Shown: positions 13,085 through 58,637, counted from the stretch's first letter. The stretch is DNA of 64,000 bases from a virus (IMGVR_UViG_2930438282_000003:32001-96000), one strand, 5' to 3'. Translations and numbers: made by a program. The notes: generated by a model not told the origin, from the letters alone.

Positions 13085-13130
13085 TATAGTGTGCGGCCGC
13101 ATCCGCAAGATTGTCTGCAAGGGGCCGGGC
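13085..13130 (+). promoter_or_regulatory. Putative promoter -10 (TATAGT) and structured leader of the first morphogenesis operon
   Basis: TATAGT at 13085-13090. The leader CGGCC..GCAAGA/TCTGC..GGCCG can fold over the AAGGGG RBS. It lacks the full conserved motif and shows only GGGCCGGGC. Confidence 0.5.
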
Positions 13131-13475
13131 ATGATCAGCATTCCGGAGCTTGTCGTCCTAGCCGCCGCCGGGTATCGCGGCACCCAACTCGCCGTCCATG
13201 ACACGATCCTGGACCCGGCCCGCAACACGGTCTTCGACTGGCAGAGCCGGAACCCCGACAGCCGCGCCCGCACCTTCGTCATCACCCTGATCTCCTGTGT
13301 GTACTGCACCGGCTGGTGGATCTCCGGTGCGCTCCTCGCAGCGTGGCTCCTCGCATCGGGGCAGATGGACAAGGTGCCGTTCCTCGTCCACGGCATCGAA
13401 TGGTTCGCCGTCGCCGGCGCGGCCGTCTTCCTGAACCGCGTCGACGACACCCTGGGCGAGGTGGTGAACCGGTGA
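13131..13475 (+). CDS. DUF1360-like small membrane protein
   Basis: MISIPELVVLAAAGYRGTQLAVHDTI...TLISCVYCTGWW, with a CxxC and hydrophobic helices; sits directly before the portal. Confidence 0.75.
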   Translation: MISIPELVVLAAAGYRGTQLAVHDTILDPARNTVFDWQSRNPDSRARTFVITLISCVYCTGWWISGALLAAWLLASGQMDKVPFLVHGIEWFAVAGAAVFLNRVDDTLGEVVNR

Positions 13476-15226
13476 CCCGCCGCGAGATCGCCGCCGCGGC
13501 GTCCCGATACATCGACCGCAAGGTCCGCACCAAGGGCACCGTCGACCAGGGCTGGCAGGGCCGGGCCTGGGAGCTGTATCACCTGATCCCCGAAGTGCGG
13601 TTCGCCGCGACCTACGTCGCGAACGCCATGTCCGGCGCCACCCTGTACGCGGGCCGCCGCGCCGACGACGGCACGATCGAACCCGCCCCCAACGGGCACC
13701 GCGCCTCGGAGATCGTGCAGCAGATCGCCGGAGGCCCCGACGGGCAGGCCAAGCTTCTCGGCGCGTTCGGCAAACATCTCACCGTGCCCGGGGAGGGCTG
13801 GATCGTCATCCGCCCCAACTCCGACGTCCTGTCCCCGGATGCCCCCGAAGACGGCCACGACTGGCGCGTCCTGTCCACGCGTGAGGTACGCCAGCAGTCC
13901 GGGAAGCTCACCGCCGAAATCGACGGCGAGGACGTCGAGATCCCCGCCGGCGACGAAGAACGCCTCGACCCTGACGCGCCCGTGGCGCTCCGCGTGTGGG
14001 AGCCCGACCCCGAGCGGGCCATCGAATCCGACAGCCCGGTCCGCTCGAGCATCGACCTGCTGGAGGAACTGCTCCTCCTCAACTCCGCGGTGAAGGCTAT
14101 CGCCCGCTCCCGGCTCACCGGCCGGGGCATCCTCCTCGTCCCCAAGGGCACACGCTTCCCCACCCTGCCCACGCAGGGCGACGCCGAGGACGACCTGATC
14201 GAGATCCTCATGCAGGTCGCGGAGACGGCCATCCGCGAACCCGAGTCGGCCGCCGCGACCGTGCCGATCGTGCTGGAAGTCCCCGCGGACTCCATCTCCG
14301 ACTTCAAGTTGCTCACCTTCGAGTCCAACTTCGACGAGCTGGCGCTGAAGCTCCGCGAGGAAGCTGTGAAACGGTTCGCGACCGGCCTGGAAGTCCCGGC
14401 GGAGATTCTCCTCGGCCTTGGCGACGTCAACCACTGGGGTTTGTGGGGGTTGACGGCCGAAGCGATCCGTATGGGCATCGAGCCCAAGCTGGCCACCGTC
14501 TCGTACGCGCTCACCCAGCAGTGGCTGCGGCCTCTCCTGGAGGCGGAGAACGTCGAGGACTGGCACCGCTGGCTCGTCTGGTACGACACCGCGGCCCTCC
14601 GCGTGCGCACCAACCGTGCCGAGACCGCCCTGCAGGCCTACGACCGGGGTGTCATCGGTGCTGCCGCGCTGCGCCGGGAGACCGGCTTCGAGGAGTCCGA
14701 CGCCCCCAGCGCAGAAGAGGAAGAGGCCCGCAACCAGCAGAACGACACCCGGGACCAGGAGGAGCAGGACGGCCAGGAGCAGGCCCCGGAGAAGCCCACG
14801 CCGGACCTGCCGGTCGACGAGACCACCGACGAACCCGGCACCCTGCCCGCCTCCGCCGGGGCCCGCACCACCCCGGGGCTGATCGCCGCGGCGGACGGCC
14901 TGATCTGGGCCGCCCTCTCCTCGGCCGGCGACAAGCTGCTGCGCACGCCGATCTGCCCGCGCAGCGAACGCGCCCGGGCCCGCGAGATCCAGGCCGCCGC
15001 CCTGCACACCGAGCTGAAGGTCGAGCCCGGCCAGGTCGAGCAGTACCGGCTCCTGGAAGGCGCCTGGACCCGCGTCCCCGAGATCGCGAAACGGTACGGC
15101 CTCGAAGCGTCCTGCCTGACGGCCGCGCTCGACGCGTACGCCCGCGAGTTGATCGCCGCCGGGATCGAGCACTCCTATGAGGTGGTGCCCGCCGTCGTCA
15201 CCTCATGCCTGGGCTTGGCCGCATGA
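13472..15226 (+). CDS. Phage portal protein (cluster-B-like actinophage type)
   Basis: GTG overlapping the previous stop (GTGA). GWQGRAWELYHLIPEVRFAATYVANAMS, HLTVPGEGW, SRLTGRGILLVP, RFATGLEVPAEILLG..NHW and WYDT motifs; position at the head of the module. Confidence 0.8.
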   Translation: MTRREIAAAASRYIDRKVRTKGTVDQGWQGRAWELYHLIPEVRFAATYVANAMSGATLYAGRRADDGTIEPAPNGHRASEIVQQIAGGPDGQAKLLGAFGKHLTVPGEGWIVIRPNSDVLSPDAPEDGHDWRVLSTREVRQQSGKLTAEIDGEDVEIPAGDEERLDPDAPVALRVWEPDPERAIESDSPVRSSIDLLEELLLLNSAVKAIARSRLTGRGILLVPKGTRFPTLPTQGDAEDDLIEILMQVAETAIREPESAAATVPIVLEVPADSISDFKLLTFESNFDELALKLREEAVKRFATGLEVPAEILLGLGDVNHWGLWGLTAEAIRMGIEPKLATVSYALTQQWLRPLLEAENVEDWHRWLVWYDTAALRVRTNRAETALQAYDRGVIGAAALRRETGFEESDAPSAEEEEARNQQNDTRDQEEQDGQEQAPEKPTPDLPVDETTDEPGTLPASAGARTTPGLIAAADGLIWAALSSAGDKLLRTPICPRSERARAREIQAAALHTELKVEPGQVEQYRLLEGAWTRVPEIAKRYGLEASCLTAALDAYARELIAAGIEHSYEVVPAVVTSCLGLAA

Positions 15227-15245
15227 GGCCGCAGGGAGAACCGGC

Positions 15246-15440
15246 ATGCAATCGGCCCCACTCCGCGTCACCGTCGCCCCAGCCGACGTACGGGAGGACT
15301 GGTGCACGGTCTGCAAGGCGTACACCCGCCTCGTCGGCAGCCTCGCCCTCCTCACCCCGGCCGGCGTGTCCACCGTCGGCACGTGGGCGTGGTGCGAGAT
15401 CTGCGATGACCCCGGCTACCGGGAGGCGACCCGTGGCTGA
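15246..15440 (+). CDS. Small zinc-ribbon protein (CxxC...CxxC)
   Basis: ATG 15246 after GGGAG; WCTVCK...GTWAWCEICD. Confidence 0.65.
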   Translation: MQSAPLRVTVAPADVREDWCTVCKAYTRLVGSLALLTPAGVSTVGTWAWCEICDDPGYREATRG

Positions 15441-15777
15441 CCCGCTCCTGTACCAAGCACCCCTCGGGCACTCCGTGTCCGCGCACCGCGTGCACGGCTG
15501 GTGCGCCATCGAACGCAGCCTCGACGAGGAACTCATCGCCTGGCGCACCCGCGAACGGTCCCGGTACGAGATCGCGAAGACCGTGTGCGCGGCCAGCCCC
15601 GCCATCGACACCACAGCCGAGTACGAGCGGCCCTGCCCGGCCTGCGGGCGGGAAGCCCTCACCGTCACCAGCGTGCGCGTGCAGCTCGACGACGCCCCCC
15701 GCCTGGCCGGCGGGTGGGCGCTGTGCCTCCACTGCAACGCCACCCCCCACCCCGTCATGGAGGACCCCCGTGGCTGA
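15433..15777 (+). CDS. Small zinc-ribbon protein, paralog-like of the preceding gene
   Basis: GTG 15433 after GGGAGG; PCPACGR...GGWALCLHCN; overlaps both neighbouring genes. Confidence 0.65.
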   Translation: MADPLLYQAPLGHSVSAHRVHGWCAIERSLDEELIAWRTRERSRYEIAKTVCAASPAIDTTAEYERPCPACGREALTVTSVRVQLDDAPRLAGGWALCLHCNATPHPVMEDPRG

Positions 15778-18700
15778 CCCGCACCAGCTGTTGGAGCAGG
15801 CCGAGGAGACCGTCGCCGAAGAGGTCAGCGCCGTCCTGCAGGCGGTCGCCGACGAGTTCGCGGCGGCCCTGGAGAACGCCGACGAGATCGTGGCCGCCAG
15901 GTTCTCCGTCTCGCGGATCGCCCGCATGTTCACGGACCGCATGCCGCGCATCGTGCGCCGCCTCCTCCGCGTCTCCGAGCAGGCCGCCCAGCAGGCCGCC
16001 GACACGACCGAGGGTGAGTTGCCTCCGGAGTGGGAGGACCTGCCCGGCCGGTACGACGACGGCCGCGACCTCCCCCCTGCCATGAGTGACTACGTCGACG
16101 TCACCGAGCACCTGCTGCGCGCCGTCGGCGACCGGCTGGCGGCCGTGGCCCGCGACGAGCTCGCCGCCGGTGTCGACGCAGGGGAGACCATCGAGCAGCT
16201 GAGGGCCCGCCTCCGCGAGGCGTTCGCCCGCGAGGGCGCCCAGCTCGGCGACATGCGTGAAGAGCGCATCGCCCGCACAGAAGCCGGCCGGGCCTGGAAC
16301 ACCGCCACGCTGGGCGCGGCCCGCGACGCCACCGGCACCCTGGCGCCGATCGTGAAGCAGTGGCTGTCCCGCCGCGACGACCGTGTACGCCACGATCATG
16401 CCGGGGCCAACGGGCAGATCCAGCTCCTCGACGACCCGTTCACCGTCGGCGGGATCGAGATGGACGCCCCGCACGACCCGACCGCACCGGCCTCCCAAGT
16501 CGTGAACTGCCGGTGCATCCTGGCCGTACATCCCGAAACCAGCGCATCTGCCTACGAATCGCAAGCGCTAAAGTGCTCTGAAGGCTTCGAATCGCAGGAA
16601 ACCCAGACCGCCGCTGCGGACGATGACCATCTGCAGGGCGCCATGGTCGCCCTCATGCCCAGCACTGAGGACGCCGCCCGCCTGGCCCTCGAAGGCGGCG
16701 AAGCGGCCGAAGAGCTGCACTGCACGATGTTCTTCCTCGGCGACGACGCCTCCCAGTGGAGCACCGGCGAGCGCACCGAGTTCATCCGCGCCCTGGAAGC
16801 GGCCGTCTCCGACCTTGGCGGGCCCGTCCTGGCCAAGGCCACCGGCACCGCCCATTGGAACACCGACAGCGACAAGCCGTCCTGGGTGTGGACTATCAGC
16901 GACCAGGCCGAGGACGGCCCCACCCTCGGCGACGCCCGAGCGGCCGTCACCGTCGCCCTGGAAGACACCCACCACCCCGAGCTGCCCCGCCAGCACTCGC
17001 CCTGGACCGCGCATACCTGCGGGGTCTACACGGCCGAAGCCTGGCCGTACGAGCCCATGACCGAACGCGTCGGCCCGGTCACCTTCGACCGGCTGCGCGT
17101 CGCGTTCGGAGACGAGCACACGGACATCCCCCTCGGCCCCCAGCAGGAGGAAGAAGCCATGCCCGAAGCCGTACAGGCCGCCGCGGCCCTGTCGGTCCGC
17201 ACCTGGTCCACGCCCGACGACACGGCGATCGCCTTCGAAGATCAGCAGACCGGTGACGGCCGGATCTTCAAGTCCGGCGCCCTGAAGTGGGACCGCCGCC
17301 CGATGCCGCTGCAGTACGCCGACGAGATGCTGATGGGCCACGAGGGCGCCGAACTCGCCGGGGCCATCAAGACGGTGAAGCGGGACGGCAACCGCATCAC
17401 CGCCTCCGGGGTGCTGTACGCGACCCGTTCGGCCGGGGCGGACGCCATCCAGCTCCTCGACGAGGACGCGCCCCTCGGCATCAGCGTCGACCTGGACGAC
17501 GTGGACATCGAGTTCGTCGACAACACTCTCAGCCCGGAAGACGCCGACTGGCTGTTCGCGTCGGCCCGGCTCCCGCAGGCGAGCGTGCTGCGCCTCGACG
17601 ACGGCTCCGTCATGCTGTCGGGTACGACCCGCGCCGAATGGACCGCATCCGAGGGGGCGTTCTCCCGGTCCCGCTACGACCTCCAGCTCATCACCGGCCC
17701 GGGCGGCGCCCTCAACGCGTCAGGCATCCAGAACGCGTTCGCCGGTATCGGTGTCCTCGCCGCGGCCGCCGGCGACGCCGACGACCCCGAGCAGGGCCTC
17801 GTCGTCTACTCGCAGAAGTCCGGCGAGTTCGTCATGCGGATCACCCGCGCCCGCCTGCGCGGCGCCACCCTCGTGGCCATGCCCGCCTTCAAGGACGCCC
17901 GGATCGTCCTCGACCCGGCCGAGGAGACCGCCGCGGTGGTGCCGCTCGTCACCGCGACAGGCGACACCCGGGACCGCGTGGTCACCTACGTGTGCACGTC
18001 CCCGGCCGCCGTCGGCGCCCGCGACGTCTCCAAGGCCCTCGGCATGGCCATGAGCACCGCCCGAGGACACCTCAACGCCGCAGCGAAGAGCGGCCGGATC
18101 ATCCGGCTCGTCCCCGGCCTGTTCTGCGGCCCCTCCTCGATGCCCGAAGGTGAAGCCGCGGCGCCTGACGACGACCTGGAGGCCTCCGCGTGGACGGCGA
18201 TGGAGGACGCGCCGCCCATGCCCGCCGCCTGGTTCCAGGAGCCCACCATGGAGGAGCTGCCGCCCGGCTCCGGGGGCGTCCACTACAAGGACGGCCGCGT
18301 ATACGGCTGGGTCGCCCAGGCCGGGGATCCGCACGCCGGGTATCCCGGGAAGAACCTCACGATCGAAAGCCTCGGCGGGATCGACCTCACGCACTTCCTG
18401 CGCGCCCGGTTCCTCCTCGACGACGGCGCCTACGTGAAGGCGGGGGCGATGACGATGAACGTCGGCCACCACCGCGACGGCGCCGAATGCGAGACCGCCA
18501 GCTGCCAGTTCGACGACACCCGCACCGTCGCCGCGATCGTCACCGTCGGCATGAACGAGCGCGGCCTGTGGTTCTCCGGCGCGGCCGGCCCGTGGCTGTC
18601 CGACTGGGACCGCCGAGTGTTCTCCGCCTGCCAGCCCAGCTACCACATGAAGCAGGGCCGTGACGGGTGCTGGCAGCTCCGCGCCGTCCTCTCCGTGCCG

Positions 18701-19060
18701 GTGCCCGGGCACTCGTCGCCGCTCCTCGCCACCGCGGTCGCCGAACGCGCGAACCTCGCCCTGGCCGCGTCCGCAGCGTTCTCGGACACCATCCCCGGAC
18801 AACGCCAGGACACTGCCCCGACGGTCCCCGCGAGCTCCGCCGAGGGCACCCCTGACCTGCCCGGACAGCGCCCGGACAGCGTGTCCGGACAGGTACCGGA
18901 CATCGACGTGGACCGGCTGATCGCCGCCCTGACCGACGGGCCGTTCGTCGACCGGCTCGCCACGGCCATCGAGCGCCGAGAAGCAGAACGCCGCGACGAA
19001 CTCGAAGCCATGGCCGCACTCGTGGCCGCCGACACCACCACGCAGAACGGAGCGAACTGA
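15770..19060 (+). CDS. MuF-like head morphogenesis / 2H-phosphoesterase-like / capsid maturation protease fusion
   Basis: MuF motifs RIARTE, KQWLSRRDDRVRHDH and VNCRC; 2H-like LHCT...AHTC; protease-like region QTGDGRIF...GISVDLDD...GATLVAMPAF; an internal wHTH-like segment. Confidence 0.8.
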   Translation: MADPHQLLEQAEETVAEEVSAVLQAVADEFAAALENADEIVAARFSVSRIARMFTDRMPRIVRRLLRVSEQAAQQAADTTEGELPPEWEDLPGRYDDGRDLPPAMSDYVDVTEHLLRAVGDRLAAVARDELAAGVDAGETIEQLRARLREAFAREGAQLGDMREERIARTEAGRAWNTATLGAARDATGTLAPIVKQWLSRRDDRVRHDHAGANGQIQLLDDPFTVGGIEMDAPHDPTAPASQVVNCRCILAVHPETSASAYESQALKCSEGFESQETQTAAADDDHLQGAMVALMPSTEDAARLALEGGEAAEELHCTMFFLGDDASQWSTGERTEFIRALEAAVSDLGGPVLAKATGTAHWNTDSDKPSWVWTISDQAEDGPTLGDARAAVTVALEDTHHPELPRQHSPWTAHTCGVYTAEAWPYEPMTERVGPVTFDRLRVAFGDEHTDIPLGPQQEEEAMPEAVQAAAALSVRTWSTPDDTAIAFEDQQTGDGRIFKSGALKWDRRPMPLQYADEMLMGHEGAELAGAIKTVKRDGNRITASGVLYATRSAGADAIQLLDEDAPLGISVDLDDVDIEFVDNTLSPEDADWLFASARLPQASVLRLDDGSVMLSGTTRAEWTASEGAFSRSRYDLQLITGPGGALNASGIQNAFAGIGVLAAAAGDADDPEQGLVVYSQKSGEFVMRITRARLRGATLVAMPAFKDARIVLDPAEETAAVVPLVTATGDTRDRVVTYVCTSPAAVGARDVSKALGMAMSTARGHLNAAAKSGRIIRLVPGLFCGPSSMPEGEAAAPDDDLEASAWTAMEDAPPMPAAWFQEPTMEELPPGSGGVHYKDGRVYGWVAQAGDPHAGYPGKNLTIESLGGIDLTHFLRARFLLDDGAYVKAGAMTMNVGHHRDGAECETASCQFDDTRTVAAIVTVGMNERGLWFSGAAGPWLSDWDRRVFSACQPSYHMKQGRDGCWQLRAVLSVPVPGHSSPLLATAVAERANLALAASAAFSDTIPGQRQDTAPTVPASSAEGTPDLPGQRPDSVSGQVPDIDVDRLIAALTDGPFVDRLATAIERREAERRDELEAMAALVAADTTTQNGAN

Positions 19061-23768: not shown

Positions 23769-23772
23769 CGCC

Positions 23773-49238: not shown

Positions 49239-50171
49239 ATGTCCCCGACGATCCGCAGGGCTGTGATCCCCGCCGCCGGACTGGGCTCCCGCCTGCTGCC
49301 GCTGACCAAAGCCACGCCGAAGGAAATGCTCCCGGTCGGCGACAAGCCGGTGATCGAGCACACCGTGCGCGAGCTGGTGGACTCCGGCATCACCGACATC
49401 ACCATCGTCGTCTCCGGCGGCAAGAGCTTGATCCAGGATCACTTCCGGCCCAACCCCGCCCTCGTAGAACAGCTGCGCAGCGATGGGAAGGCGGCGTACG
49501 CGGCCGCGGTGGAGGAGGTCGCCGAGCTAGCCCGCAAGGGCCACATCACTTACCTCGACCAGCACGGCCCGTACGGCAACGGCACGCCTGTGCTGAACGC
49601 CGCCCGCTCCTTCGGCGACGAACCGGTACTGGTGCTGTGGCCGGACGACGTGTTCGTGGCCGAGGTCCCCCGAGCCCAGCAGCTGGTCCGCGCCTACGAA
49701 CAGACAGGCTGCCCCGTCCTGGCTCTGATGCCGGTGGACCCCGCCGAGTCCCGGCGCTACGGCGTGCCCGTTGTCAAGGAAGATCTCGGTGACGGCCAGT
49801 TGCGCATCACCGGCCTGATCGAGAAGCCGAAACCGGCTGATGCGCCATCCCCGTACGCGGCCATCGGCGGCTATGTGATCACTCCCGGCATCGTTGACGA
49901 GCTGCGCGAACAGACTCGCCGCTGGTACGAGCACAAGACCGGCGAGGTGTACCTGACCGACGCCATCAACGCCTACGCTTCTACCCGGGCGGTGTACGGG
50001 CAAGTCATCCAAGGCCGCTGGTACGACACCGGCAACCCGGCCGACTACCTCGTCGCCCAGATGGCCTTCGCCCTCGCCCACCCTGAGTACGGGCCCGTCC
50101 TGCGCGGCCTCGTCCGGGAACTCGACGACGACCGCGCCGACTCCAGCGTGGACGCCACATCCATGCCCTGA
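49239..50171 (+). CDS. galU: UTP-glucose-1-phosphate uridylyltransferase-like nucleotidyltransferase
   Basis: RAVIPAAGLGSRLLPLTKATPKEMLPVGDKPVI, IEKP, GEVYLTDAI and YDTG. Confidence 0.85.
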   Translation: MSPTIRRAVIPAAGLGSRLLPLTKATPKEMLPVGDKPVIEHTVRELVDSGITDITIVVSGGKSLIQDHFRPNPALVEQLRSDGKAAYAAAVEEVAELARKGHITYLDQHGPYGNGTPVLNAARSFGDEPVLVLWPDDVFVAEVPRAQQLVRAYEQTGCPVLALMPVDPAESRRYGVPVVKEDLGDGQLRITGLIEKPKPADAPSPYAAIGGYVITPGIVDELREQTRRWYEHKTGEVYLTDAINAYASTRAVYGQVIQGRWYDTGNPADYLVAQMAFALAHPEYGPVLRGLVRELDDDRADSSVDATSMP

Positions 50172-50230
50172 GCTGTCGGTCTACTTGTGTGCCGCCTGGC
50201 CACGGCGGGCGGCACACAAGGAGAGCACCC

Positions 50231-50382
50231 ATGGCACGCCAACGCCTCTTCGAACCCTCATCGACCAGCGTGACACTTGGCTGGCCATCAACCCAGTTCA
50301 AGGCTGCCCCAAAGGCCGCGGCTACTGCTACCTGCCGGACCTCGGACTCACCCACACCGCCCGCTTGATCGCCATCCGCTGA
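50231..50382 (+). pseudogene. Radical SAM gene remnant
   Basis: WLAINPVQGCPKGRGYCYL is a CxxxCxxC motif with the middle Cys changed to Arg; truncated and out of frame with the ATG. Confidence 0.5.
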
Positions 50383-50526
50383 TCATGTCAACCACCAGCG
50401 CAGAGCCCTCACCCGCTATCACGCACAACTCGTAAGGGACTGTCACGCAAGAGCTGGCGGCCATAAGGGTGTCGAGTTACGCCTGCAAGTTTGACTTGTC
50501 TGGTTGCCCCCGAGCGATCATGATCC

Positions 50527-51111
50527 ATGACTCGCGCACTATCGACGCCGCCAGCAGTCTCTGCGGAGGTAATCTCCCGCTCTGAGCAGCCTGTGCTGTC
50601 CGTTGCCCAGGGTTTGGAGTTGCGGCCTTGGGAACCGGCTGACGCTCCCGTATTCCTGGGGGCTTACCAGGACGAAGAGATCCGCCGCTGGCATACGCGG
50701 CGCCCCCAGTCAGGGGCCCAGGTTCGAGAGTGGTTCGCCGGCTACCGCCAGGACTGGCAAAGTGCTACGGGCGCCCATTGGGCCATCGCCCGTCGCGACG
50801 GTGAAGTCCTCGGCAGGATATCCACACGTAGCTGGAACTTCGACGACGGCGTCGCCGGTGTCGGCTACTGGGTACTTCCAGCGGCCCGCGGCGCCGGTGT
50901 TGCGACCTGCGCCGTCATCGCCCTCTCAGCCTGGGCTTTGTATGAGATTGGCTTCTATCGCCTGCACTTGGACCACTCGATCCGCAACCATGCCTCCTGC
51001 CGGGTTGCTACGAAGTCCGGATACCTACTCGAAGGCACCATGCGCAGCGCCGCAGTGCATGACGACGGTCGACACGACATGCACTTGCACGCTCGAATCC
51101 GGAACACCTGA
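50527..51111 (+). CDS. GNAT (RimJ/RimL-type) acetyltransferase
   Basis: LRPWEPAD, VGYWVLPAARGAGVA and NHASCRVATKSGY.LEG. Confidence 0.9.
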   Translation: MTRALSTPPAVSAEVISRSEQPVLSVAQGLELRPWEPADAPVFLGAYQDEEIRRWHTRRPQSGAQVREWFAGYRQDWQSATGAHWAIARRDGEVLGRISTRSWNFDDGVAGVGYWVLPAARGAGVATCAVIALSAWALYEIGFYRLHLDHSIRNHASCRVATKSGYLLEGTMRSAAVHDDGRHDMHLHARIRNT

Positions 51112-51172
51112 ACCGGCGTGATGGGCCGATCATGGCTAGGCGGACGCCGCGACAGTTGGGAGGGGACAGTTA

Positions 51173-52341
51173 CTGACTTCGGCGTCGTAGGGTCTGGGTA
51201 TTCGTCGGGCCTGGTGACGGTGTCCGCTTTGGCTGGTACCCCGGAGGTATGCGGTACGCAGATGGGGGCGGGCTGACCGCCGAGCAGCGCAAGCGCCGCG
51301 AAGAGATAAGGATGCAGGCCGTCGAACTCTTCGAGGAGCGTGTGAAAGTCCCGCGCATCGCCCGGGAGTTACGGGTGAGCGAGAAGTCCGTCTACCAATG
51401 GCGCCGTGCCTGGAAGACAGGCGGGCGGGAAGCCCTGCGGTCCAAGGGGGCCCCGGGCTACGACTGTCGGCTCGGACCCCACCTTCAGGCCAGACTCGCC
51501 GCCTGGCTGGACGAAGGACCGGCCGCACACGGCTGGACGGAGGACCAGGTGTGGACCGCCGCCCGGGTACGCACACTGATCGGGCGGAGGTTCCACATCT
51601 CCTACAGCGTCTCCGGGGTGACCCGGCTGCTGCACCGGATGGGCTACAGCGTGCAGATGCCTGCCCGGCCCGCCGCCGAGCGCGACGAGGACGCGATCAC
51701 CGCATGGCGGGAGGCGACCTGGCAGGAGGTAAAACCCTTAGGGCGGCGACCGGCGCCTTCATCTGCTTCGAGGACGAAGCAGGCGTGACCGGCCGTCCGC
51801 CCAAGGGCCGCACCTGGGGCCGACGCGGGATCACCCCGACGGTGCGCGTTCCCGGGCGCAGCCGTGGCCGCCTGTCGGTGGCCGGGTTGCTGTGCTTCAA
51901 GCCGGGCCTTCCCGCCCGCCTGTGCTACCGGCTACGCCGGCACACCGGCCGCAAGGACGAGCGCCGCTCGCTGGGCGAGAGCGACTACATCCACCTGCTG
52001 GATGGCGCCCACCACCTGCTCAAAGCCCCACTGATCGTGGTGTGGGACCGGCTGAACACTCACATCTCCAAGACGATGCAGATGCTCGTGGCGCAGCGCG
52101 AGTGGCTGACGGTGGTGCTGCTGCCCGGATACGCGCCCGAGCTCAATCCGGTCGAGGGCATGTGGGCACACATCAAACGGAGCCTGGCCAACCTGGCCGC
52201 CCGCCCCCTCAGCAACCTCGAGACCCTGCTCCGCAGACGGCTCAAGGCACTGCAGTACCGGCGCGCCCTCCTTGACGGATTCCTCGCCGGAACGGGCCTC
52301 ACTCTCGACAGACCGGACTGACCCTACGACGCCGAAGTCAG
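51173..52341 (+). mobile_element. IS630-family insertion sequence
   Basis: Perfect 22-bp terminal inverted repeats CTGACTTCGGCGTCGTAGGGTC / GACCCTACGACGCCGAAGTCAG; TA duplicated at 51171-72 and 52342-43. Confidence 0.95.
51249..52321 (+). CDS. IS630 transposase (two ORFs joined by a -1 frameshift near 51730)
   Basis: orfA HTH 51249..51788; orfB ICFEDEAG, VVWDRLNTH and YAPELNPVE; GTAAAACCC at the overlap. Confidence 0.88.
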
Positions 52342-52401: not shown

Positions 52402-53442
52402 TTGGCCGTTGCAGGGTGCGGAAGCCACACGTACCGCGTGGTAGACCGGTCGGGGGCGACCGTCGCCACTGGGTCTGTCCTGGCCGAAGTGGAATGGGTG
52501 CGCCTGCTGGACGACACGTCTACGGCGCGCGTCGTCATCAATCCGGACGGCGACTGCTGCGAAGCTCTGGGCCGGGTCCGGTCGTGGAGGCACCGGCTGC
52601 TGATCTACCGGGACGGCGAGTTCGTGTGGGACGGGCCGATCATCACGCCGTCCTGGTCGCTGGGGCAACTGGAGATCCGGGCCGCTGACATCGGCGCGTG
52701 GCTCGACCGCAGGGTGCCGCACGAGTCGATTACCTTCGGCTCCACCGATCTGGCCGACATCGCCGAGTGGCTGATCGAGGATGCCTTCGCACCCGACGAC
52801 CCGGGGTACCAGGTTGTGAAGATGGCCCCGGCCGGGGTGACCGGCGGGCGCCGCTACATCAAGGACGTCGGTCAGTCCGGCGACCACCTGCGGGCGCTGG
52901 CGGAGACCGGCCTCGACTACACCATCGTCGGCCAGTCGATCATCCTGCTGCCCGAGGACTGGCGGGAGAGCGTCGGCCGCCTGTCGGACGCCGACCTGCC
53001 CGAGGGCCTGGAAGTCACCGAGGACGGCACGAACCTGGCGACCCGCTGGGTCGTCGCCGGCGACGACGAAGGCGACGTCCTCGGCGAGGCAGGCGACGCG
53101 GACGAGTACTACGGGTTGCTGGAGCGGTACGTGGAGGACACCTCGATCACGGACGACGCGTCGGCGACGTCGGCGGCCCGGGTCAAGGTCCGCACGAGTC
53201 TGCCCGTGCCGGTGTTCATCGACAGCCAGGACGTCACCCTGTCCCCGGAGGCAGCCATCGACGTGCCGAAGCTCGTACCGGGCTGGTGCCTGGACGTCAC
53301 CAGCAACACGACCTGCCGCACGATCACCCAACGCCTCAAGATCGTCGGCGTGAAGGTGACCGAGGAAGGCGGCACAGACGCCCAGCCGGGCGCGGAGCGC
53401 GTACAGGTGCAGTTGGCGGCAGCCGGATCGGAGGCGTCCTGA
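52402..53442 (+). CDS. Minor tail (baseplate hub-like) protein
   Basis: TTG start after GGAGG; VEWVRLLDDTSTA, LLIYRDGEFVWDGPI and YYGLLE. Confidence 0.75.
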   Translation: MAVAGCGSHTYRVVDRSGATVATGSVLAEVEWVRLLDDTSTARVVINPDGDCCEALGRVRSWRHRLLIYRDGEFVWDGPIITPSWSLGQLEIRAADIGAWLDRRVPHESITFGSTDLADIAEWLIEDAFAPDDPGYQVVKMAPAGVTGGRRYIKDVGQSGDHLRALAETGLDYTIVGQSIILLPEDWRESVGRLSDADLPEGLEVTEDGTNLATRWVVAGDDEGDVLGEAGDADEYYGLLERYVEDTSITDDASATSAARVKVRTSLPVPVFIDSQDVTLSPEAAIDVPKLVPGWCLDVTSNTTCRTITQRLKIVGVKVTEEGGTDAQPGAERVQVQLAAAGSEAS

Positions 53443-53443
53443 C

Positions 53444-53887
53444 ATGGGGCTGCGAGGAGGGCCGACCAGGCGGCTCCCAGGCAACGCGCTCGGCGGGATG
53501 CTGCGCGACCTGGACAGGCGCAGCCGGATGCCGAGCCCGGGACGAGGCCGACGCAGGGAACAGGAAGCCCAGGAGGGCGAGCCGGGAATAGCCCCCAGGA
53601 CGGCGGCCGCGGTCCCGGCCGCGTCCGTCGCCGTGACCGGTGAGGATGGCCGCGCACGCTGGAAGTTCCCCACGCCGTACGCCGCGCCACCGGTCCTGAC
53701 CGCCCTGCCCGTCGACCCCGACCCCAGCGACGACGAGCGGACCGTCACGGTGGCCGTGGAGGAGATCACCACCTGGTACGCCGTCGTCCGGGTGTGGCAG
53801 ACGCGGCCACGGCGCGGCCACGGCGTCGCCTCCCCGGTCGGCGAGGGCGTCCGCGTGCAGTTGGTCGCGGTCGACTCTGCCTCCTGA
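53444..53887 (+). CDS. Small tail-associated protein
   Basis: Coupled to the previous gene; beta-rich C-terminus similar to 33392..33697. Confidence 0.65.
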   Translation: MGLRGGPTRRLPGNALGGMLRDLDRRSRMPSPGRGRRREQEAQEGEPGIAPRTAAAVPAASVAVTGEDGRARWKFPTPYAAPPVLTALPVDPDPSDDERTVTVAVEEITTWYAVVRVWQTRPRRGHGVASPVGEGVRVQLVAVDSAS

Positions 53888-53895
53888 CGCCCAGC

Positions 53896-53961
53896 TACCC
53901 TGCTTGGCGTCGCCGCTGGTTGTGGGCCGGGCCGCAGTCTCCTCGAAGGAGCGGCCCCGCC
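53896..53961 (+). promoter_or_regulatory. Conserved leader copy 8
   Basis: TACCCT 53896; GCCGCTGGTTGTGGGCCGGGC 53912-53932; GGGCCG..CTCCT-cga-AGGAG-CGGCCC fully pairs the AGGAG RBS. Confidence 0.9.
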
Positions 53962-54687
53962 ATGGCCTCATCAGTTTGTGTGTGCGACACGTACTTCACC
54001 GTCGACGACGACGGTTCGCTCTGCCTGATCCCCGGACAGCAGGGCCTGCGGGAGATCTTGTACTTCAAGAACCCAGGCAACTTCCAGTTCAAGAAGGCCG
54101 ACTACCCGTGGCTTGCCCGCGTGCGGGTCAAGGTCCAAGCCGGTGGCGGCGGAGCACCGGGAGCAGCGTCCGCCGCGAACCAGATGGTGGCCCAGATCGG
54201 TGGTACGGGCGGCGGCTACTCCGAATCCCTCCTCGACGTCTCCGCTCTCGGCGCGGTCGAGACCATCGTGGTCGGCGCGGGCGGATCCGCCGGTTCGGCC
54301 AACACGGACGGCGGCTCGGGCGGCAACTCGAGCTTCGGCGGTCTCGTCTCCGCCAACGGAGGAGGCGGCGCACCACAGACCATGGAGTCCGGCTCGGACG
54401 TGGGCGCATTCTCGGGCATCGCCGGGGCCCCTCCCGGGACCGGCCAGCTCGCCATCGGCGGCGGCCCCGGTGGTGGCTCGCTCCGCCTCTCCGGTTTCCA
54501 AGGCCAGTCCGGCGAGGGCGGCAGCAGCCAGCTCGGGCACGGCGGCCAGCAGCGGTCGTCGTCCAACCCTGGCGGCGCGCCACGCGGATACGGCGCCGGC
54601 GCGGCCGGAGCTCTAGCGCGCGCAGGGGACAGCGTGGGCGGCACCGCGGGCAGCGGAGGCATCGTCATCATCGAGCTGTATGGATGA
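53962..54687 (+). CDS. Glycine-rich tail fibre-like protein
   Basis: ATG 53962, MASSVCVC; VQAGGGG, GGTGGGYSES, IVVGAGG, GGNSSFG and GSGGIVIIELY. Confidence 0.8.
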   Translation: MASSVCVCDTYFTVDDDGSLCLIPGQQGLREILYFKNPGNFQFKKADYPWLARVRVKVQAGGGGAPGAASAANQMVAQIGGTGGGYSESLLDVSALGAVETIVVGAGGSAGSANTDGGSGGNSSFGGLVSANGGGGAPQTMESGSDVGAFSGIAGAPPGTGQLAIGGGPGGGSLRLSGFQGQSGEGGSSQLGHGGQQRSSSNPGGAPRGYGAGAAGALARAGDSVGGTAGSGGIVIIELYG

Positions 54688-55187: not shown

Positions 55188-57184
55188 ATGCATCGAACAT
55201 TCCGTCACTTTGCTGTCGTCATAGCAGTTTTGCTGGCATCCGTACTACCGAGCGTCTCTGCCTCCGCTCACACCTCCGCTCCCGCCGACCCACAGGCCGA
55301 TGCAGCAGCCGTCCAGACCCTGGACTGGCTCGCCCACCTGCCCGGTCGGGCGGGCAACCGAGTGGTGTCCGGCGCCTTCGGCGGCCACAGCGGGCTGACC
55401 TTCTCACTCACCCAGACCGAAGCGCTCAGGAACCAGACCGGTCAGTACCCCGGGCTGCTCGCCTGCGACTACGGCGTCAACGCCGCCACCATCGACCACT
55501 CCTGCAACGCCACCCTCAAGCAGTGGTGGGCCGACGGCGGCCTGGTCTCCGTCAGCGCCCATGTCCCCAACCCGGTCAAGCCCGGCTGGGATGGCTTCTG
55601 GACGCGGCTGGAGACCTTCGATCAGCTGACCGACCCCTCCACCGCCACCGGGGCGGCCTGGCGCGCGACTCTGGACCAGATCGCGGACGGGCTCGAGGAC
55701 CTGAACGCCGCAGGCGTACCGGTACTGTTCCGGCCGCTGCACGAGATGAACGCGCAGGGGTCCAAGACCTTCTGGTGGAGTTCCCAGAGCCGGTCGGCTT
55801 ACAAGGCCGTGTGGCGTGACATGTTTCAGTACCTGACTGAGAACAGAGGCCTGCACAACCTGTTGTGGGTCTACTCACCGGGGTGCTGGTCCGGCGACCG
55901 GGCGGGGTACTACCCCGGCGACGCATACACCGATATCGTCGGCCTCGACTGCTACATCGGCAATCCCGCCGCCGCCCAGGGGTACGCCGAGCTCACCGCG
56001 CTGGACAAGCCCTTTGCCTTCTCGGAGATCGGTCCGCCGATCCCGTCCGGCAGCAGCGTCCCGGCGACCGGAAGTTTCGACTACGCTCAGTGGCCCGAGG
56101 CCATCCGCGCCCAGTTCCCGGCCACCACGTACTTCCTGACTTGGAGCAGCTCCTTCAGTCCCGTCAACCAGCTGGGCGGGACGAGCTGATTAACGACCCC
56201 TGGACCGTCAACCGGGGCGAGATCAACCTCAGCGCACGCACCGAGGCCGCCGGACCCGCTCGCCCACCGGCCCCCGTCGAGGAACTGTACGGCTTCGAGG
56301 ACGGCACCAGTGACTGGAACGGCTACCTTACGCTCCACGGCCCCTGGTCAGTGACCGAGTGGGCCTCGCAGGGCACCTACTCCCTCAAGGCCGACATCGA
56401 CCTCGCCTCCCCCGAGAGCTACCTCAACTGGACCGGCACCACGGACCTGAGCAGCTACGGCACCCTCACCGCGGCAGTGCGCACCGCTCCCTGGGGGAAC
56501 CATGCTGCCGGCACCCACGCCAAGCTTTACCTGCGTACTGGATCGGCCGGGACCTGGTACGACAGCGGAGAGACGGTCATCGATACGAACGGGGCGATGC
56601 TCACTATCGACCTGTCCAAGGTCAGGGACCTCAACGACGTCCGTGAGATCGGCGTCCGGATCACCCCCGCCACCGGTGCGTCCGGCCAGTCGGCCGTCTA
56701 CGTGGACGACGTGTCGGCAACCCGGCCGCCGACCACTTTTGCCGACTTCGAGGACGGCGCGGACAGCTGGATCGGCTACCGGACAAAGGCCGGTCCTTGG
56801 TCGGTAACCGAATGGGCCGCCATGGGCACCCACTCCTTCAAGGCCGATGTCGATCTCACGGCGGGCAGCAGCATTCTCTACCGGTACTTCTCCACGCCAG
56901 TCGACTGGAGCGGCCGGACCACCTTCGCCGCCGTAGCCCGCACCGCTCCCTGGGGCAATCACGCCGACGGCACCCGGGCCAAGCTGTATGTCAGGTCCGG
57001 CCCCGACTGCACCTGGCACGACGGCGGAACCCATCCCGTGGACTCCGCAGGAACCGCGCTCTCTTACAACCTGACCGGCGTCGCCGGCCTCAACCACGTC
57101 TGCGAGGCCGGGGTCCAGTTTATCTACGCCTCCGGGGCCTCGGGCGGCTCCGCGGTGTACGTGGACCACGCGACGTTGCGCTGA
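55188..57184 (+). pseudogene. Secreted GH26 beta-mannanase with two CBM-like repeats, frameshifted near 56183
   Basis: LFRPLHEMN, YYPGDAYTDIVGLDCY and FSEIGP. The ORF stops at 56189 but ELINDPWTVNRGEI continues in another frame, followed by two FEDG..W..GPWSVTEWA..G.(Y/H)S.KAD repeats. Confidence 0.8.
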
Positions 57185-57239: not shown

Positions 57240-57358
57240 CGCCGATAAGGCCAGAGCGGTTGGTTCAACGCGAATCGAGCGCGCAGTTGTGCCGGACCCC
57301 GGCGAGTTCGACGCTTCCAGCATGATCAACCCCCGAAGGACTTCGAGCGCCGACCACT

Positions 57359-57430
57359 TAGACTCAATGGTGCGCCGCTGGTTGTGGGCCGGGCCAAGAC
57401 AAATCCCCGAGGACGGTGGGCACCTTGGCC
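57359..57430 (+). promoter_or_regulatory. Conserved leader copy 9
   Basis: TAGACT 57359; GCCGCTGGTTGTGGGCCGGGC 57374-57394; GGCCAAG (57392) pairs with CTTGGCC (57424), which contains the likely TTG start. Confidence 0.88.
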
Positions 57431-58261
57431 AGATGCGGATGCGGCGGCGGGCAATGCAGCTGCTCGATCGCCGCCGGCGACAACGTGGCACTCAGCGGTT
57501 CCGGCAGCGTCGCCAACCCCTACGTGCTCTCCGCCTCGCTAAGCTGCGAGGAGGTGCGCCAGTGCCTGTCCGGCACGGGCGGGGTCGAATACAACCCGGG
57601 TACCGGCGCCATCAGCGCAGACCTGTCCGGGCAATCTGGGAACAACCTGACCCTCGGCCCGGACGGCGGGCTGTTCGTGCCGACCGGTGCCGCCACGGTG
57701 AGCGTGGGGTGTGGCCTGACCGGCAACGGCTCCGGAGGTACCCCTCTGGAGGTATCGACGGGTACGTGGCCGTACGCGTGCGGCGCGGACACTAGCGGCG
57801 GGGTCGTCGTCTGCGACAGCAGCGGCCAGCTTCGGTCTGAGCCGCGAGGGCGGGTTTCCTACCAGCAGTTCTTCGACTCGAGGGATTACTCGGACATCAC
57901 GGTCCCCACCGCGCAGAACACGACTGCCGACACCTTCTCGATGACGGTCACCAACCCGGACCCGTGCCGGGACGCCTTCGTGCTGGTCGAACGTGAAGCG
58001 GACGTCTTCTTCGTCCTCCCCGCCGGGGGTGGCGCCGGGTGCGGCTACGAGGGCGACGAGATGTATTACACCCGCAACACTGGCTCTTCCAGCATTGTCG
58101 GCGCGCACGCCCAGACCACCAAGGTGCTGGCCAACCCGGGGCTTCTGGCCCCGGGCGCGAGTACTCCTATCGGGTTCGCTGTGACAGTGGGCCGTGGCAG
58201 CGGCGGCGCCTACTACTACCGGATTGAGGTCGCCATCCGGGCCATGATCATCAGCCTGTGA
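57425..58261 (+). CDS. Short fibre-like protein, paralog of 33769..36657
   Basis: ARCGCGGGQCSC..GSGSVANPYVLSA..CEEVRQCLS..YNPGTGAI..GPDGGLFVP..GCGLTGNG; start at 57425 (TTG) or 57416 (GTG). Confidence 0.78.
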   Translation: MARCGCGGGQCSCSIAAGDNVALSGSGSVANPYVLSASLSCEEVRQCLSGTGGVEYNPGTGAISADLSGQSGNNLTLGPDGGLFVPTGAATVSVGCGLTGNGSGGTPLEVSTGTWPYACGADTSGGVVVCDSSGQLRSEPRGRVSYQQFFDSRDYSDITVPTAQNTTADTFSMTVTNPDPCRDAFVLVEREADVFFVLPAGGGAGCGYEGDEMYYTRNTGSSSIVGAHAQTTKVLANPGLLAPGASTPIGFAVTVGRGSGGAYYYRIEVAIRAMIISL

Positions 58262-58271
58262 GGAGTGCACG

Positions 58272-58637
58272 ATGCTAGAACTTCCCCTCCCGCTGCCGGG
58301 CGCCGAGCCCGCATCCGAGCCACGCAAGCATTGGGTGGTGTACGAGGACGGCACCCTTGGCCAGTTCGGGGCAACTGGGGAGGGCGAGCCGGCGCTGCCC
58401 CGGCCGGGACGGCTGATTACGGAAGGCGAATACAATCAGCTCTCCGCTGGGATGACGGCCGCTCACAACCGGCGGGTAGCCGAGCTGCTGGCTGCCGAGG
58501 ACCTGCAGCAGCGGGGGGACTATGAGGACCTGCTCGCCTGCGGCATTCCAGAACGGATGGCCAGCCGTCTGTCCGGTCACACGCCTTTGGCTGCGCCCGC
58601 CTGTGATCCAGCCGTAGATCAGAATCTTCAAGTTTGA
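58272..58637 (+). CDS. Small protein, paralog-like of 36671..36943
   Basis: GAGGAG RBS; VVYEDG..LITEGEY..CGIPERMASRLSG. Confidence 0.7.
   Translation: MLELPLPLPGAEPASEPRKHWVVYEDGTLGQFGATGEGEPALPRPGRLITEGEYNQLSAGMTAAHNRRVAELLAAEDLQQRGDYEDLLACGIPERMASRLSGHTPLAAPACDPAVDQNLQV

What the first reader, a model, noticed from the sequence alone, without database searches (positions are those of the whole stretch)
13085..58637. Head-plus-tail morphogenesis module with no terminase, lysis, integration or replication genes in view, split into separately promoted blocks
Seen: portal, MuF/protease, two capsid genes, tail tube, adaptor, chaperone, tape measure and fibres are mostly intact. Upstream of the first gene lie only debris and an Rhs locus; downstream lie GH26 and IS debris. 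Established: in cluster-B-like actinophages the terminase lies just upstream of this block, and late genes usually form long operons. Here the blocks have their own promoter and leader, and host-like cargo sits between them. Inference: either the virion module of a very large phage-plasmid with packaging genes elsewhere, or a domesticated particle (GTA-like, DNA-free delivery or spore-associated structure).
Basis: partly seen in the sequence, partly recalled or inferred. Interest (0 to 1): 0.78.

Follow-up and report, generated by a model that had tools for sequence, protein, structure and literature searches.

The report
Cargo-laden Streptomyces prophage late region
This is the virion-gene arm of an ordinary TurkishDelight-like Streptomyces prophage: its terminase and lysis genes lie just outside the window, pushed away by large cargo insertions, so it is not an orphan or domesticated particle module.

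Summary
The head-and-tail gene set is real. It is collinear with gp10-gp32 of Streptomyces phage TurkishDelight at 47-72% aa identity, and the core genes are intact.

The claimed absences come from the window edge. The window is bases 32001-96000 of a 110,357-bp IMG/VR provirus record.
- An intact TerS/TerL pair lies 7.3-9.4 kb upstream of window base 1.
- An amidase endolysin and a one-TM membrane protein lie 9.4-11.3 kb beyond base 64000.

TerL is 70-87% identical to the TerL found 1.2-6.2 kb upstream of the portal in 8 relatives. Here a ~17-kb Rhs/IS4 island separates them. The island is bracketed by a 1,042-bp direct repeat of gp10 plus the portal 5' end.

A further ~30 kb of intergenic cargo splits the module: HNH, nucleotidyltransferase/GNAT/IS630, and GH26 with a glycan cluster.

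No integrase, ParA or recombination genes occur in the record. Both record ends still lie in phage-like DNA, so this is uninformative.

Relatives include a phage, three ~100-kb circular plasmids and chromosomal prophages up to ~119 kb. They occur in 12 of 401 sampled Streptomyces genomes.

Verdict: new member of a known kind, low interest.

The parts
1..3828 (-). Large ORF of the cargo island. It is 1407 aa stop-to-stop and runs to record 31629, outside the window. Divergent from the Rhs gene.
   Evidence: Only a weak Big_13 hit.
4136..11086 (+). Rhs/YD-repeat polymorphic toxin gene (2316 aa) with SpvB, RHS and PT-HINT domains. Cargo, not phage backbone.
   Evidence: Pfam hits. No homolog in TurkishDelight or the two plasmids compared.
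12870..13910 (+). Right copy of a 1,042-bp direct repeat (94.6% identity). The left copy is at record 26816-27857, which is window -5184 to -4143.
   Evidence: Self-blastn. The left copy encodes gp10' and portal residues up to about 150, then diverges.
13131..13475 (+). Homolog of TurkishDelight gp10. The counterpart in both plasmids is annotated DUF1360. Small hydrophobic protein, and the first gene of the module.
   Evidence: tblastn to TurkishDelight gp10, 60%. One hydrophobic segment.
13316..15226 (+). Portal protein, full length.
   Evidence: phrog_776, E 1.3e-168. 64% to TurkishDelight gp11. 72-89% to homologs in 11 genome loci.
15770..19060 (+). MuF-like / capsid maturation protease fusion.
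   Evidence: PF04233. phrog_859, E 8e-177. 59% to TurkishDelight gp15.
20757..22412 (+). Major capsid protein.
   Evidence: phrog_777, E 4.8e-160. 66% to TurkishDelight gp17.
22474..23337 (+). gp18 homolog, named 'cupin' by NCBI.
   Evidence: phrog_779. 70% to TurkishDelight gp18. 200 homolog clusters, best 92%. AF2 model unusable.
23773..32189 (+). Two giant Cys-containing repeat proteins (1876 aa at 23773-29403 and 936 aa at 29379-32189). This is a family-typical variable slot between head and tail genes.
   Evidence: phrog_18824, E 4.5e-288 and 3.7e-105. Homologs occupy the same slot in the plasmids and in prophages.
33730..36657 (+). Fibre-like protein with six ~106-aa tandem repeats and a C-terminal domain.
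   Evidence: The C-terminal ~390 aa are 59% identical to the pSITFR-21c ORF at 65973-67271.
38683..40933 (+). Major tail protein (38683-39414), gp22 homolog (39411-40127) and head-to-tail adaptor (40127-40933).
   Evidence: phrog_792 and phrog_7999. 62-72% to TurkishDelight gp21-23.
40936..41676 (-). Free-standing HNH endonuclease inserted between the adaptor and gp24.
   Evidence: phrog_1872 and phrog_59. The flanking genes are adjacent in TurkishDelight and both plasmids.
41774..44385 (+). gp24 and gp25 homologs (41774-42729), then the tail assembly chaperone with its overlapping second frame (43616-44170 and 44053-44385).
44453..49014 (+). Tape measure protein (1081 aa) and minor tail protein (438 aa).
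   Evidence: phrog_305 and phrog_838. 65% and 57% to TurkishDelight gp28 and gp29.
49215..52321 (+). Cargo insertion: nucleotidyltransferase (49215-50171), GNAT (50527-51111), and an IS630-type element (HTH 51249-51788, DDE_3 51398-52321).
   Evidence: Pfam. gp29 and gp30 are 73 bp apart in TurkishDelight.
52402..54687 (+). Minor tail protein (gp30 homolog), gp31 homolog, and glycine-rich gp32 homolog.
   Evidence: phrog_837. 64%, 47% and 59% to TurkishDelight gp30-32. Sequence.
55188..57184 (+). Secreted GH26 mannanase with two galactose-binding domains, split by one frameshift near 56175-56189. Host-like cargo.
   Evidence: Pfam. Signal peptide and frame break seen.
57416..58637 (+). Last backbone genes of the window (281 aa and 121 aa).
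   Evidence: The first is 38% identical to the NBC_01590 plasmid gene at 100262-101056, which lies just before that plasmid's amidase region.
58739..64000 (.). Start of a ~15-kb glycan-gene insertion. It holds a second GH26 (58739-60103, minus strand) and a PMT_2 protein (62394 onward, minus strand). Beyond the window it continues with GH12-ricin, GT2 x2, PMT_2 and UDP-glucose dehydrogenase, up to the endolysin at window-equivalent 73360.
   Evidence: Pfam.

Best explanation
The region is the late-gene (virion) arm of a TurkishDelight-like temperate siphovirus genome resident in a Streptomyces-type host. IMG/VR records it as a provirus.

Packaging, virion and lysis functions are all present on the same 110-kb record in the canonical order: ParB and methyltransferases, TerS, TerL, gp10, portal, MuF-protease, capsid, giant fibre-like proteins, tail tube, adaptor, chaperone, tape measure, minor tail proteins, endolysin, membrane protein.

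About 47 kb of extra DNA has been inserted between genes. This pushed the terminase and lysis genes out of the 64-kb window and broke the module into blocks.
- A ~17-kb Rhs/IS4 island, bracketed by a 1-kb duplication of the gp10 and portal 5' region.
- An HNH endonuclease.
- A nucleotidyltransferase, GNAT and IS630 block.
- A GH26 mannanase.
- A ~15-kb glycan-gene cluster.

SHOWN: gene identities, collinearity, intact core ORFs, and the positions of TerS/TerL and the lysis genes.

INFERRED: that TerL acts in trans on the distant portal, and that the element can still make particles. I put the odds at roughly even that it is still an infectious phage rather than a grounded one.
For: 1. Collinearity with TurkishDelight. 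23 of the 59 annotated CDS in its first 50.7 kb hit the record, and 21 of these (gp10-13, 15-19, 21-32) lie in order at 47-72% identity.
2. The record from 10.4 to 107.3 kb is collinear with pSITFR-21c from 31.5 to 80.7 kb.
3. TerL at record 23109-24743: phrog_38, E 1e-78. It is 73% identical to the pSITFR-21c TerL.
4. A TerL 70-87% identical lies 1.2-6.2 kb upstream of the portal in 8 of 11 genome loci. Of the other three, two have under 2.6 kb of upstream sequence and one is a decayed portal fragment.
5. A TerS candidate is 71% identical to the ORF preceding the pSITFR-21c TerL.
6. Endolysin: Amidase_2 and phrog_880, E 7e-43. It is followed by a one-TM homolog of TurkishDelight gp37.
7. All insertions are intergenic. 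Core ORFs align over their full length. Pairwise dN/dS against relatives is 0.16-0.60 in 33 comparisons.
8. Patchy distribution: 12 of 401 sampled Streptomyces genomes.
9. Relatives include an isolated phage, three circular ~100-kb plasmids, and chromosomal prophages.
Against: - No tyrosine or serine integrase, no ParA, and no homolog of the TurkishDelight repressor, exonuclease, RecT or other early genes anywhere in the 110 kb.
- At least five IS-type elements or fragments, a truncated duplicate portal, and a frameshifted GH26. This is what a decaying prophage can look like.
- The late arm alone is 96.9 kb, against 49 kb in pSITFR-21c. With an early arm like those of relatives the genome would reach about 150 kb. 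The largest relatives seen are ~119 kb, so it may no longer fit its capsid.
- dN/dS measures long-term history, not recent decay.
- No expression or particle data exist.
Confidence: 0.82

Rival explanations
1. Grounded, defective prophage. The same element can no longer complete a cycle, either because it lost its early or lysogeny arm or because it outgrew its capsid. It is on its way to decay, and the virion genes are intact only because the damage is recent.
For: - No integrase, repressor or recombination genes in 110 kb.
- IS elements: DDE_5, IS4, IS630, a DUF772 fragment, and IS110 at the record end.
- The GNAT gene that follows the lysis genes in relatives is only a fragment here.
- About 47 kb of extra DNA in the late arm.
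- Decayed portal fragments of this family exist elsewhere, in L020 and L021.
Against: - Both record ends still lie in phage-like DNA. The left-end ORFs match pSITFR-21c at 24.2-25.5 kb. The right end stops inside an IS110 gene just after the GNAT remnant. The missing genes may simply lie beyond the record.
- None of the ~25 backbone genes from TerS to the lysis genes shows a stop or truncation.
- A ~118-kb chromosomal relative exists.
Confidence: 0.4
2. Extrachromosomal phage-plasmid (pZL12-style lifestyle) rather than an integrated prophage.
For: - Three relatives with the same capsid type are circular 99-103.5-kb plasmids.
- A ParB homolog lies at record 10385-11578.
- No integrase in the record.
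- Streptomyces plasmid-phages are documented: pZL12, as cited in passages of PMC4487206.
Against: - IMG/VR classes the record as a provirus.
- No ParA.
- ParB-like genes next to the terminase also occur in the integrase-bearing phage TurkishDelight.
- Relatives sit inside 7.0- and 9.4-Mb contigs.
Confidence: 0.12
3. Domesticated particle system (GTA-like, a DNA-free delivery particle, or a developmental structure) kept by the host.
For: The structural genes are intact despite many insertions and IS activity around them. Nothing else points this way.
Against: - A cognate TerS/TerL pair and a lysis cassette are retained in phage order.
- The family is sporadic, found in 12 of 401 genomes, and is not clade-wide.
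- The closest relatives are a plaque-forming phage and mobile plasmids.
- No portal homolog above 89% identity was found in the two collections searched. No orthologous, vertically inherited copy was seen.
Confidence: 0.04

Closest known systems
Streptomyces phage TurkishDelight (NC_073473, 93.6 kb, host S. scabiei)
   Same: The gp10-gp32 virion module is collinear at 47-72% aa identity. It includes the MuF-protease fusion, the capsid 'hexamer' protein, the chaperone pair and the tape measure. There is also a gp37-like membrane protein after the lysin.
   Different: - TurkishDelight has a different TerS/TerL type, with no tblastn hit at 1e-4.
- It has a tailspike (gp33), its own endolysin and holin, an integrase, a repressor and an early arm. 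None of these has a homolog in the record.
- It has none of the large cargo insertions (Rhs, glycan cluster, IS).
- It carries a glycosyltransferase where this element has giant repeat proteins.
Circular Streptomyces plasmids pSITFR-21c (NZ_CP134608.1, 103.5 kb), NBC_01590 unnamed2 (NZ_CP109332.1, 102 kb) and an S. atratus plasmid (NZ_CP108279.1, 99 kb)
   Same: - Same capsid type at 58-67% aa identity.
- pSITFR-21c shares the whole ParB, methyltransferase, DAM-like/GNAT, TerS, TerL, portal, tail and amidase order. Its TerL is 73% identical.
- Giant ORFs occupy the head-tail slot.
   Different: - They are closed circles of about 100 kb, and their annotations include ParA or integrase and early genes.
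- Their late arm is about 49 kb, against 97 kb here.
- They have no Rhs island or glycan cluster.
Plasmid-phage pZL12 / pSLE1 of Streptomyces
   Same: Precedent for a ~90-kb Streptomyces element that is both plasmid and phage. The NBC_01590 plasmid also carries a PhlD-type PKS gene like the one described for pZL12 and pSLE1 (passages of PMC4487206).
   Different: pZL12 itself was not compared here. The many ~90-kb Streptomyces plasmids with a terminase have TerL only 35-38% identical to this one. Apart from the three relatives, only four plasmid records match this capsid type, all at 33% identity or less.
Gene transfer agents (RcGTA type)
   Same: A head-tail cluster seen without replication or lysogeny genes, which is how the window looked on its own.
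   Different: GTAs are vertically inherited across a clade and lack phage-like mobility (recalled knowledge). Here TerS/TerL and the lysis genes are in phage order, and the family is patchy.

Membership tests
TurkishDelight-like temperate siphoviruses of Streptomycetaceae | Collinear virion module (gp10, portal, MuF-protease, capsid, gp18, tail tube, adaptor, chaperone pair, tape measure, minor tail proteins) | tested here: met
   tblastn at 47-72% identity, in order. PHROG hits E 1e-34 to 1e-177.
TurkishDelight-like temperate siphoviruses of Streptomycetaceae | TerS/TerL upstream of the portal | tested here: met
   TerS at record 22565-23137 and TerL at 23109-24743. They lie 2.7 kb from the truncated portal copy and 20.6 kb from the full portal. 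The same TerL type is adjacent to the portal in 8 of 11 genome loci and 6 of 12 IMG/VR loci. One IMG/VR locus has the TurkishDelight type instead, and one with 10 kb of upstream sequence has neither.
TurkishDelight-like temperate siphoviruses of Streptomycetaceae | Lysis cassette downstream of the tail genes | tested here: met
   Amidase_2 endolysin at record 105360-106670, plus a one-TM gp37 homolog at 106700-107281. A glycan insertion displaces them by about 15 kb.
TurkishDelight-like temperate siphoviruses of Streptomycetaceae | Lysogeny module (integrase, excisionase, repressor) and early recombination/replication arm | tested here: inconclusive
   No PF00589 or PF07508 hit. No homolog of TurkishDelight gp38-gp125 except the IS110-like gp49. 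However, the record ends inside phage-like DNA on both sides.
Phage-plasmid (pZL12-like lifestyle) | Autonomous circular replicon with partition (ParA/ParB) and replication genes | tested here: inconclusive
   A ParB homolog is present. There is no ParA: PF13614 gave none, and PF01656 gave only a sub-threshold hit inside the UDP-glucose dehydrogenase. No terminal overlap. The record is classed as a provirus. Truncation of the record prevents a verdict.
Gene transfer agent / domesticated particle | Vertical inheritance: orthologous cluster conserved across a host clade | tested here: not met
   A gp18 homolog occurs in 12 of 401 sampled Streptomyces genomes. The best portal relatives are 72-89% identical and sit in different contexts.
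Gene transfer agent / domesticated particle | Loss of phage autonomy (no specific packaging initiation, no own lysis, no replication) | tested here: not met
   A TerS candidate, TerL, endolysin and membrane protein are retained. Replication genes could not be assessed.

The most novel reading that the evidence does not exclude
The element is an overgrown prophage that has passed the capacity of its own capsid. The late arm alone is 97 kb, and the whole would be about 150 kb if the early arm resembles those of relatives. Two outcomes are possible.
- It survives as a host-retained particle producer that packages only fragments, which would be a GTA in the making.
- It regains a packageable size by recombination between the 1,042-bp direct repeats. 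That event would drop the ~17-kb Rhs toxin island and restore the native terminase-portal spacing, making the toxin island a switchable cargo.
Probability: 0.08. Interest if true: 0.55.

Novelty: new member of a known kind. Interest (0 to 1): 0.2.

Why it matters
The main value is as a correction. An apparently orphan virion module turns out to be a normal prophage arm once the sequence outside the window is read.

The element still has modest interest as an example of how much cargo a Streptomyces temperate phage backbone can take up between intact late genes:
- an Rhs polymorphic-toxin cassette;
- a caspase-FtsK protein;
- a mannan/glycan gene cluster;
- several IS elements.

It also belongs to a phage family that occurs as a free phage, as ~100-kb circular plasmids, and as chromosomal prophages.

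Tried and rejected
AF2 on an 8-sequence alignment gave mean pLDDT 32.5, so no fold search was run. PDB sequence searches with gp18 and the capsid protein gave nothing meaningful; the best E-values were 0.056 and 0.32. The homolog search returned only close relatives (the 120 listed are all at least 65% identical), too shallow for a better model.
- Rfam at gathering thresholds over the window and three flanking loci: 0 matches.
- Promoter and terminator consensus scans gave counts at chance level. The scan covers only sigma-70-type sites.
- tblastx of the record against three references timed out. It was replaced by tblastn of ORF translations.
- Sequencing runs: one DNA holder and no RNA holder listed. 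Laying its contigs on record 26001-46000 showed tiling pieces without a contradictory joint. Depth was about 193-215 across phage segment A, the Rhs island and segment B, and 353 over the IS4. These are contigs of what may be the source sample, so this is not independent support. No single piece bridges the repeats.
- IS4 inverted-repeat search: one candidate 17-nt pair, not pursued.
- 'Too big to package' as a firm argument was rejected, because relatives of 111-119 kb exist.
- CheckV's 'completeness 100' is not taken at face value, because it cannot account for 47 kb of cargo.
- Supplementary files of papers were not consulted.

Full report
WHERE THE WINDOW SITS

The window is bases 32001-96000 of a single 110,357-bp record with 67% G+C. 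The genome search identifies the record as an IMG/VR virus record classed 'provirus', with a CheckV completeness estimate of 100. The whole record could therefore be read, and that decides the case.

CHECKING THE OBSERVATION

- PHROG and Pfam scans give the following: portal (13316-15226, phrog_776, E 1e-168); MuF/protease fusion (15770-19060, PF04233, phrog_859); major capsid protein (20757-22412, phrog_777, E 5e-160); a conserved 287-aa protein (22474-23337, phrog_779, function unknown); major tail protein (38683-39414, phrog_792); tape measure (44453-47698, phrog_305); and minor tail proteins (47698-49014 phrog_838; 52402-53442 phrog_837).
- Upstream in the window lie a 2316-aa Rhs protein (SpvB, RHS and PT-HINT domains) and a large divergent ORF. 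Downstream lies a GH26 mannanase.

The closest phage is Streptomyces phage TurkishDelight, with a portal 63% identical.
- Of the 59 annotated CDS in its first 50.7 kb, 23 hit the record.
- 21 of those (gp10-13, 15-19, 21-32) lie in the same order at 47-72% identity. This adds the head-to-tail adaptor (40127-40933), gp24 and gp25, the chaperone with its overlapping second frame (43616-44385), and gp31 and gp32.
- No ORF of at least 60 aa from the second half of TurkishDelight hit the record at 1e-5.

Corrections of detail:
- The 1467-aa ORF 32254-36657 begins with about 490 residues of Arg-rich wrong-frame translation. The real genes are 32186-32860, 33392-33697 and a fibre-like gene 33730-36657 with six ~106-aa repeats.
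- The recognisable IS630 element is inside the module (51249-52321). No IS signature was found in the three ORFs tested downstream at 58.7-62.2 kb, and one of those is a second GH26.
- The consensus scan gives no support for a promoter per block: 1 site against 0.6 expected, and 0 against 0.8 expected. Rfam finds no leader-type RNA.

THE CLAIMED ABSENCES

Packaging genes lie just outside the window.
- Record 23109-24743 (window-equivalent -8891 to -7257) encodes a 544-aa terminase large subunit. It hits phrog_38 at E 1e-78 and gives a weak Terminase_6N match.
- Immediately upstream, 22565-23137 encodes a ~190-aa protein. It is 71% identical to the ORF that precedes TerL in plasmid pSITFR-21c, and is a small-subunit candidate.

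This TerL is the family's own.
- It is 73% identical to the pSITFR-21c TerL.
- It is 70-87% identical to a TerL lying 1.2-6.2 kb upstream of the portal in 8 of 11 related loci from Streptomyces and Kitasatospora genomes. Of the three without it, two have less than 2.6 kb of upstream sequence and one is a decayed portal fragment.
- Among 12 IMG/VR loci, 6 have this TerL type and one has the TurkishDelight type. Four have under 5 kb of upstream sequence. One with a full 10 kb upstream has neither type. Some IMG/VR loci duplicate genome loci.

Lysis genes lie on the other side of the window.
- Record 105360-106670 (window-equivalent 73360-74670) encodes an Amidase_2 endolysin (phrog_880, E 7e-43).
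- It is followed at 106700-107281 by a one-TM homolog of TurkishDelight gp37.

The att sites were not found.

WHY THE TERMINASE AND LYSIS GENES ARE SO FAR AWAY

Record 10.4-107.3 kb is collinear with pSITFR-21c 31.5-80.7 kb. The shared order is ParB, methyltransferases, a C5-methylase, a ChlI-like protein, a DAM-like/GNAT protein, a ParB-N protein, TerS, TerL, gp10, portal, tail genes, amidase. The span is 96.9 kb here against 49 kb in the plasmid.

The extra DNA is intergenic cargo:
1. A ~17-kb island between TerL and the portal. It holds an FG-GAP fragment, an IS4 transposase, a 1407-aa ORF, the Rhs gene and a 159-aa ORF (window 11083-11562, no Pfam match).
2. About 1.4 kb between gp16 and the capsid gene.
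3. A variable slot at 36.7-38.7 kb.
4. An HNH endonuclease (40936-41676, minus strand).
5. A nucleotidyltransferase, a GNAT and IS630 (49.2-52.3 kb).
6. A signal-peptide-bearing GH26 mannanase with a single frameshift before its two binding domains (55188-57184).
7. A ~15-kb glycan cluster. It holds GH26, PMT_2 x2, GH12-ricin, GT2 x2 and UDP-glucose dehydrogenase, and lies between the last tail-region genes (57416-58637) and the endolysin.

The Rhs island is bracketed by a 1,042-bp direct repeat at 94.6% identity (record 26816-27857 and 44870-45910).
- The left copy carries gp10' and the first ~150 portal codons, and then breaks off.
- Sequence further left is only 72-76% identical to its counterpart.
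- This gradient suggests recombination between two related phage genomes rather than a simple recent duplication.
- There is only one TerL in the record.

INTACTNESS AND SELECTION

- Every backbone gene from TerS to the lysis genes aligns over essentially its full length to the homolog in TurkishDelight or the plasmids, without internal stops.
- The tape measure is about 150 aa shorter than in TurkishDelight, in frame.
- Pairwise dN/dS for TerL, portal, MuF, capsid and gp18 against relatives is 0.16-0.60 in 33 comparisons. One further pair failed on an in-frame stop in the relative.
- This shows long-term purifying selection, as expected for phage genes. It says nothing about very recent events.

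WHAT CANNOT BE SETTLED

The record holds none of the following:
- a tyrosine or serine integrase;
- a ParA;
- a homolog of the TurkishDelight repressor, Cro, exonuclease, RecT or other early genes.

Both ends of the record are still in phage-like DNA.
- At the left end, ORFs at 653-2827 match early-region genes of pSITFR-21c at 24.2-25.5 kb.
- At the right end there is a fragment of a GNAT gene, and the sequence then stops inside an IS110 transposase. The corresponding intact gene follows the lysis genes in TurkishDelight, pSITFR-21c and a chromosomal relative.

The missing functions may simply lie beyond the record. In a chromosomal relative within a 9.4-Mb scaffold, the same backbone runs from exonuclease/RecT through TerL, portal, tail and lysis genes to GNAT/HTH over at least 118 kb. 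IMG/VR relatives range from 90 to 119 kb.

With an early arm like those, this element would reach about 150 kb. Several IS elements and a broken GH26 add to that. Taken together these leave a real chance, which I put near 40%, that the prophage is grounded.

FAMILY AND DISTRIBUTION

The capsid type is shared with three circular plasmids of 99-103.5 kb at 58-67% aa identity. It is also shared with TurkishDelight.
- The portal matches 877 phage records, but only the two TurkishDelight entries are at or above 60% identity.
- A gp18 homolog is found in 12 of 401 sampled Streptomyces species genomes. It also occurs in 200 protein clusters, the best 92% identical and named 'cupin'.
- Plasmid-phages of Streptomyces are documented: pZL12 and pSLE1 (passages of PMC4487206). 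No paper in the library mentions TurkishDelight (search listing only).

This patchy, mobile distribution is that of a temperate phage family, not of a vertically inherited domesticated particle.

VERDICT

The best explanation is an ordinary, though unusually cargo-laden, member of a known phage family. The most novel reading not excluded is an overgrown prophage that now makes fragment-packaging particles, or that sheds the Rhs island by recombination between the repeats. I give that about 8%.

Paper supplements were not consulted.

Noticed in passing
Record 26816-27857 (window -5184 to -4143) and window 12870-13910: A 1,042-bp direct repeat at 94.6% identity (gp10 plus the portal 5' end) brackets the ~17-kb Rhs/IS4 island. 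Recombination between the copies would delete the island and restore the native TerL-portal spacing. Flanking similarity falls to 72-76% further left, which suggests two parental phages.
   Followed up: partly
Window 1-11562 (island continues to record 27858): A Tc-BC-like Rhs gene (2316 aa; SpvB, RHS, PT-HINT and a ~100-aa C-terminal tail) with a small downstream ORF (11083-11562, no Pfam hit) and a divergent 1407-aa ORF. This is a polymorphic-toxin cassette carried inside a prophage.
   Followed up: partly
L020 (3.6-kb S. kebangsaanensis scaffold), 1515-3653: Another truncated portal of this family (to residue 413, with a frameshift) is directly followed by a 42%-identical homolog of the 1407-aa island ORF. 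This may be a recurrent association or a coincidence.
   Followed up: no
Record 5319-9665, minus strand (L001): A 1448-aa protein with an N-terminal caspase (Peptidase_C14) domain and FtsK/SpoIIIE ATPase matches (four stretches; E 2e-107). It has lower GC3 than its surroundings and sits next to a DDE_5 transposase. Possibly defence or conflict cargo.
   Followed up: no
Record 14634-17816 (L001): A C5 cytosine methyltransferase interrupted by an intein (Hint_2, LAGLIDADG_3 and Intein_splicing hits). The pSITFR-21c homolog lacks the insert.
   Followed up: no
Window 23773-32189: Two giant proteins (1876 and 936 aa, phrog_18824, function unknown) built of Cys-containing modules with a recurring 'LDGT.PYTP.G.VG.C' motif. 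Homologs occupy the same head-tail slot in plasmids and prophages of the family.
   Followed up: partly
Window 55188-57184, break near 56175-56189: The GH26 mannanase has a Sec-type signal peptide and is split from its two galactose-binding domains by one frameshift. This is either a pseudogene or a sequencing error. Two more GH26 copies or fragments lie at window 58739-60103 (minus strand) and record 98601-100169.
   Followed up: partly
L036 3092-4808 (record 29092-30808): Contig depth over the IS4 element is 353, against about 193 for its flanks, with 23 differing letters. At least one more diverged copy exists elsewhere in the source genome.
   Followed up: no
L039 (IMG/VR record of 93 kb): A relative with 10 kb of sequence upstream of its portal shows neither this TerL type nor the TurkishDelight type. 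It may have a third terminase type or a displaced one.
   Followed up: no
L011, L014, L015, L019 (MuF gene): In several relatives the MuF-protease alignment is split by 0.5-0.8 kb of extra sequence, which suggests inteins or inserted endonucleases within the gene.
   Followed up: no
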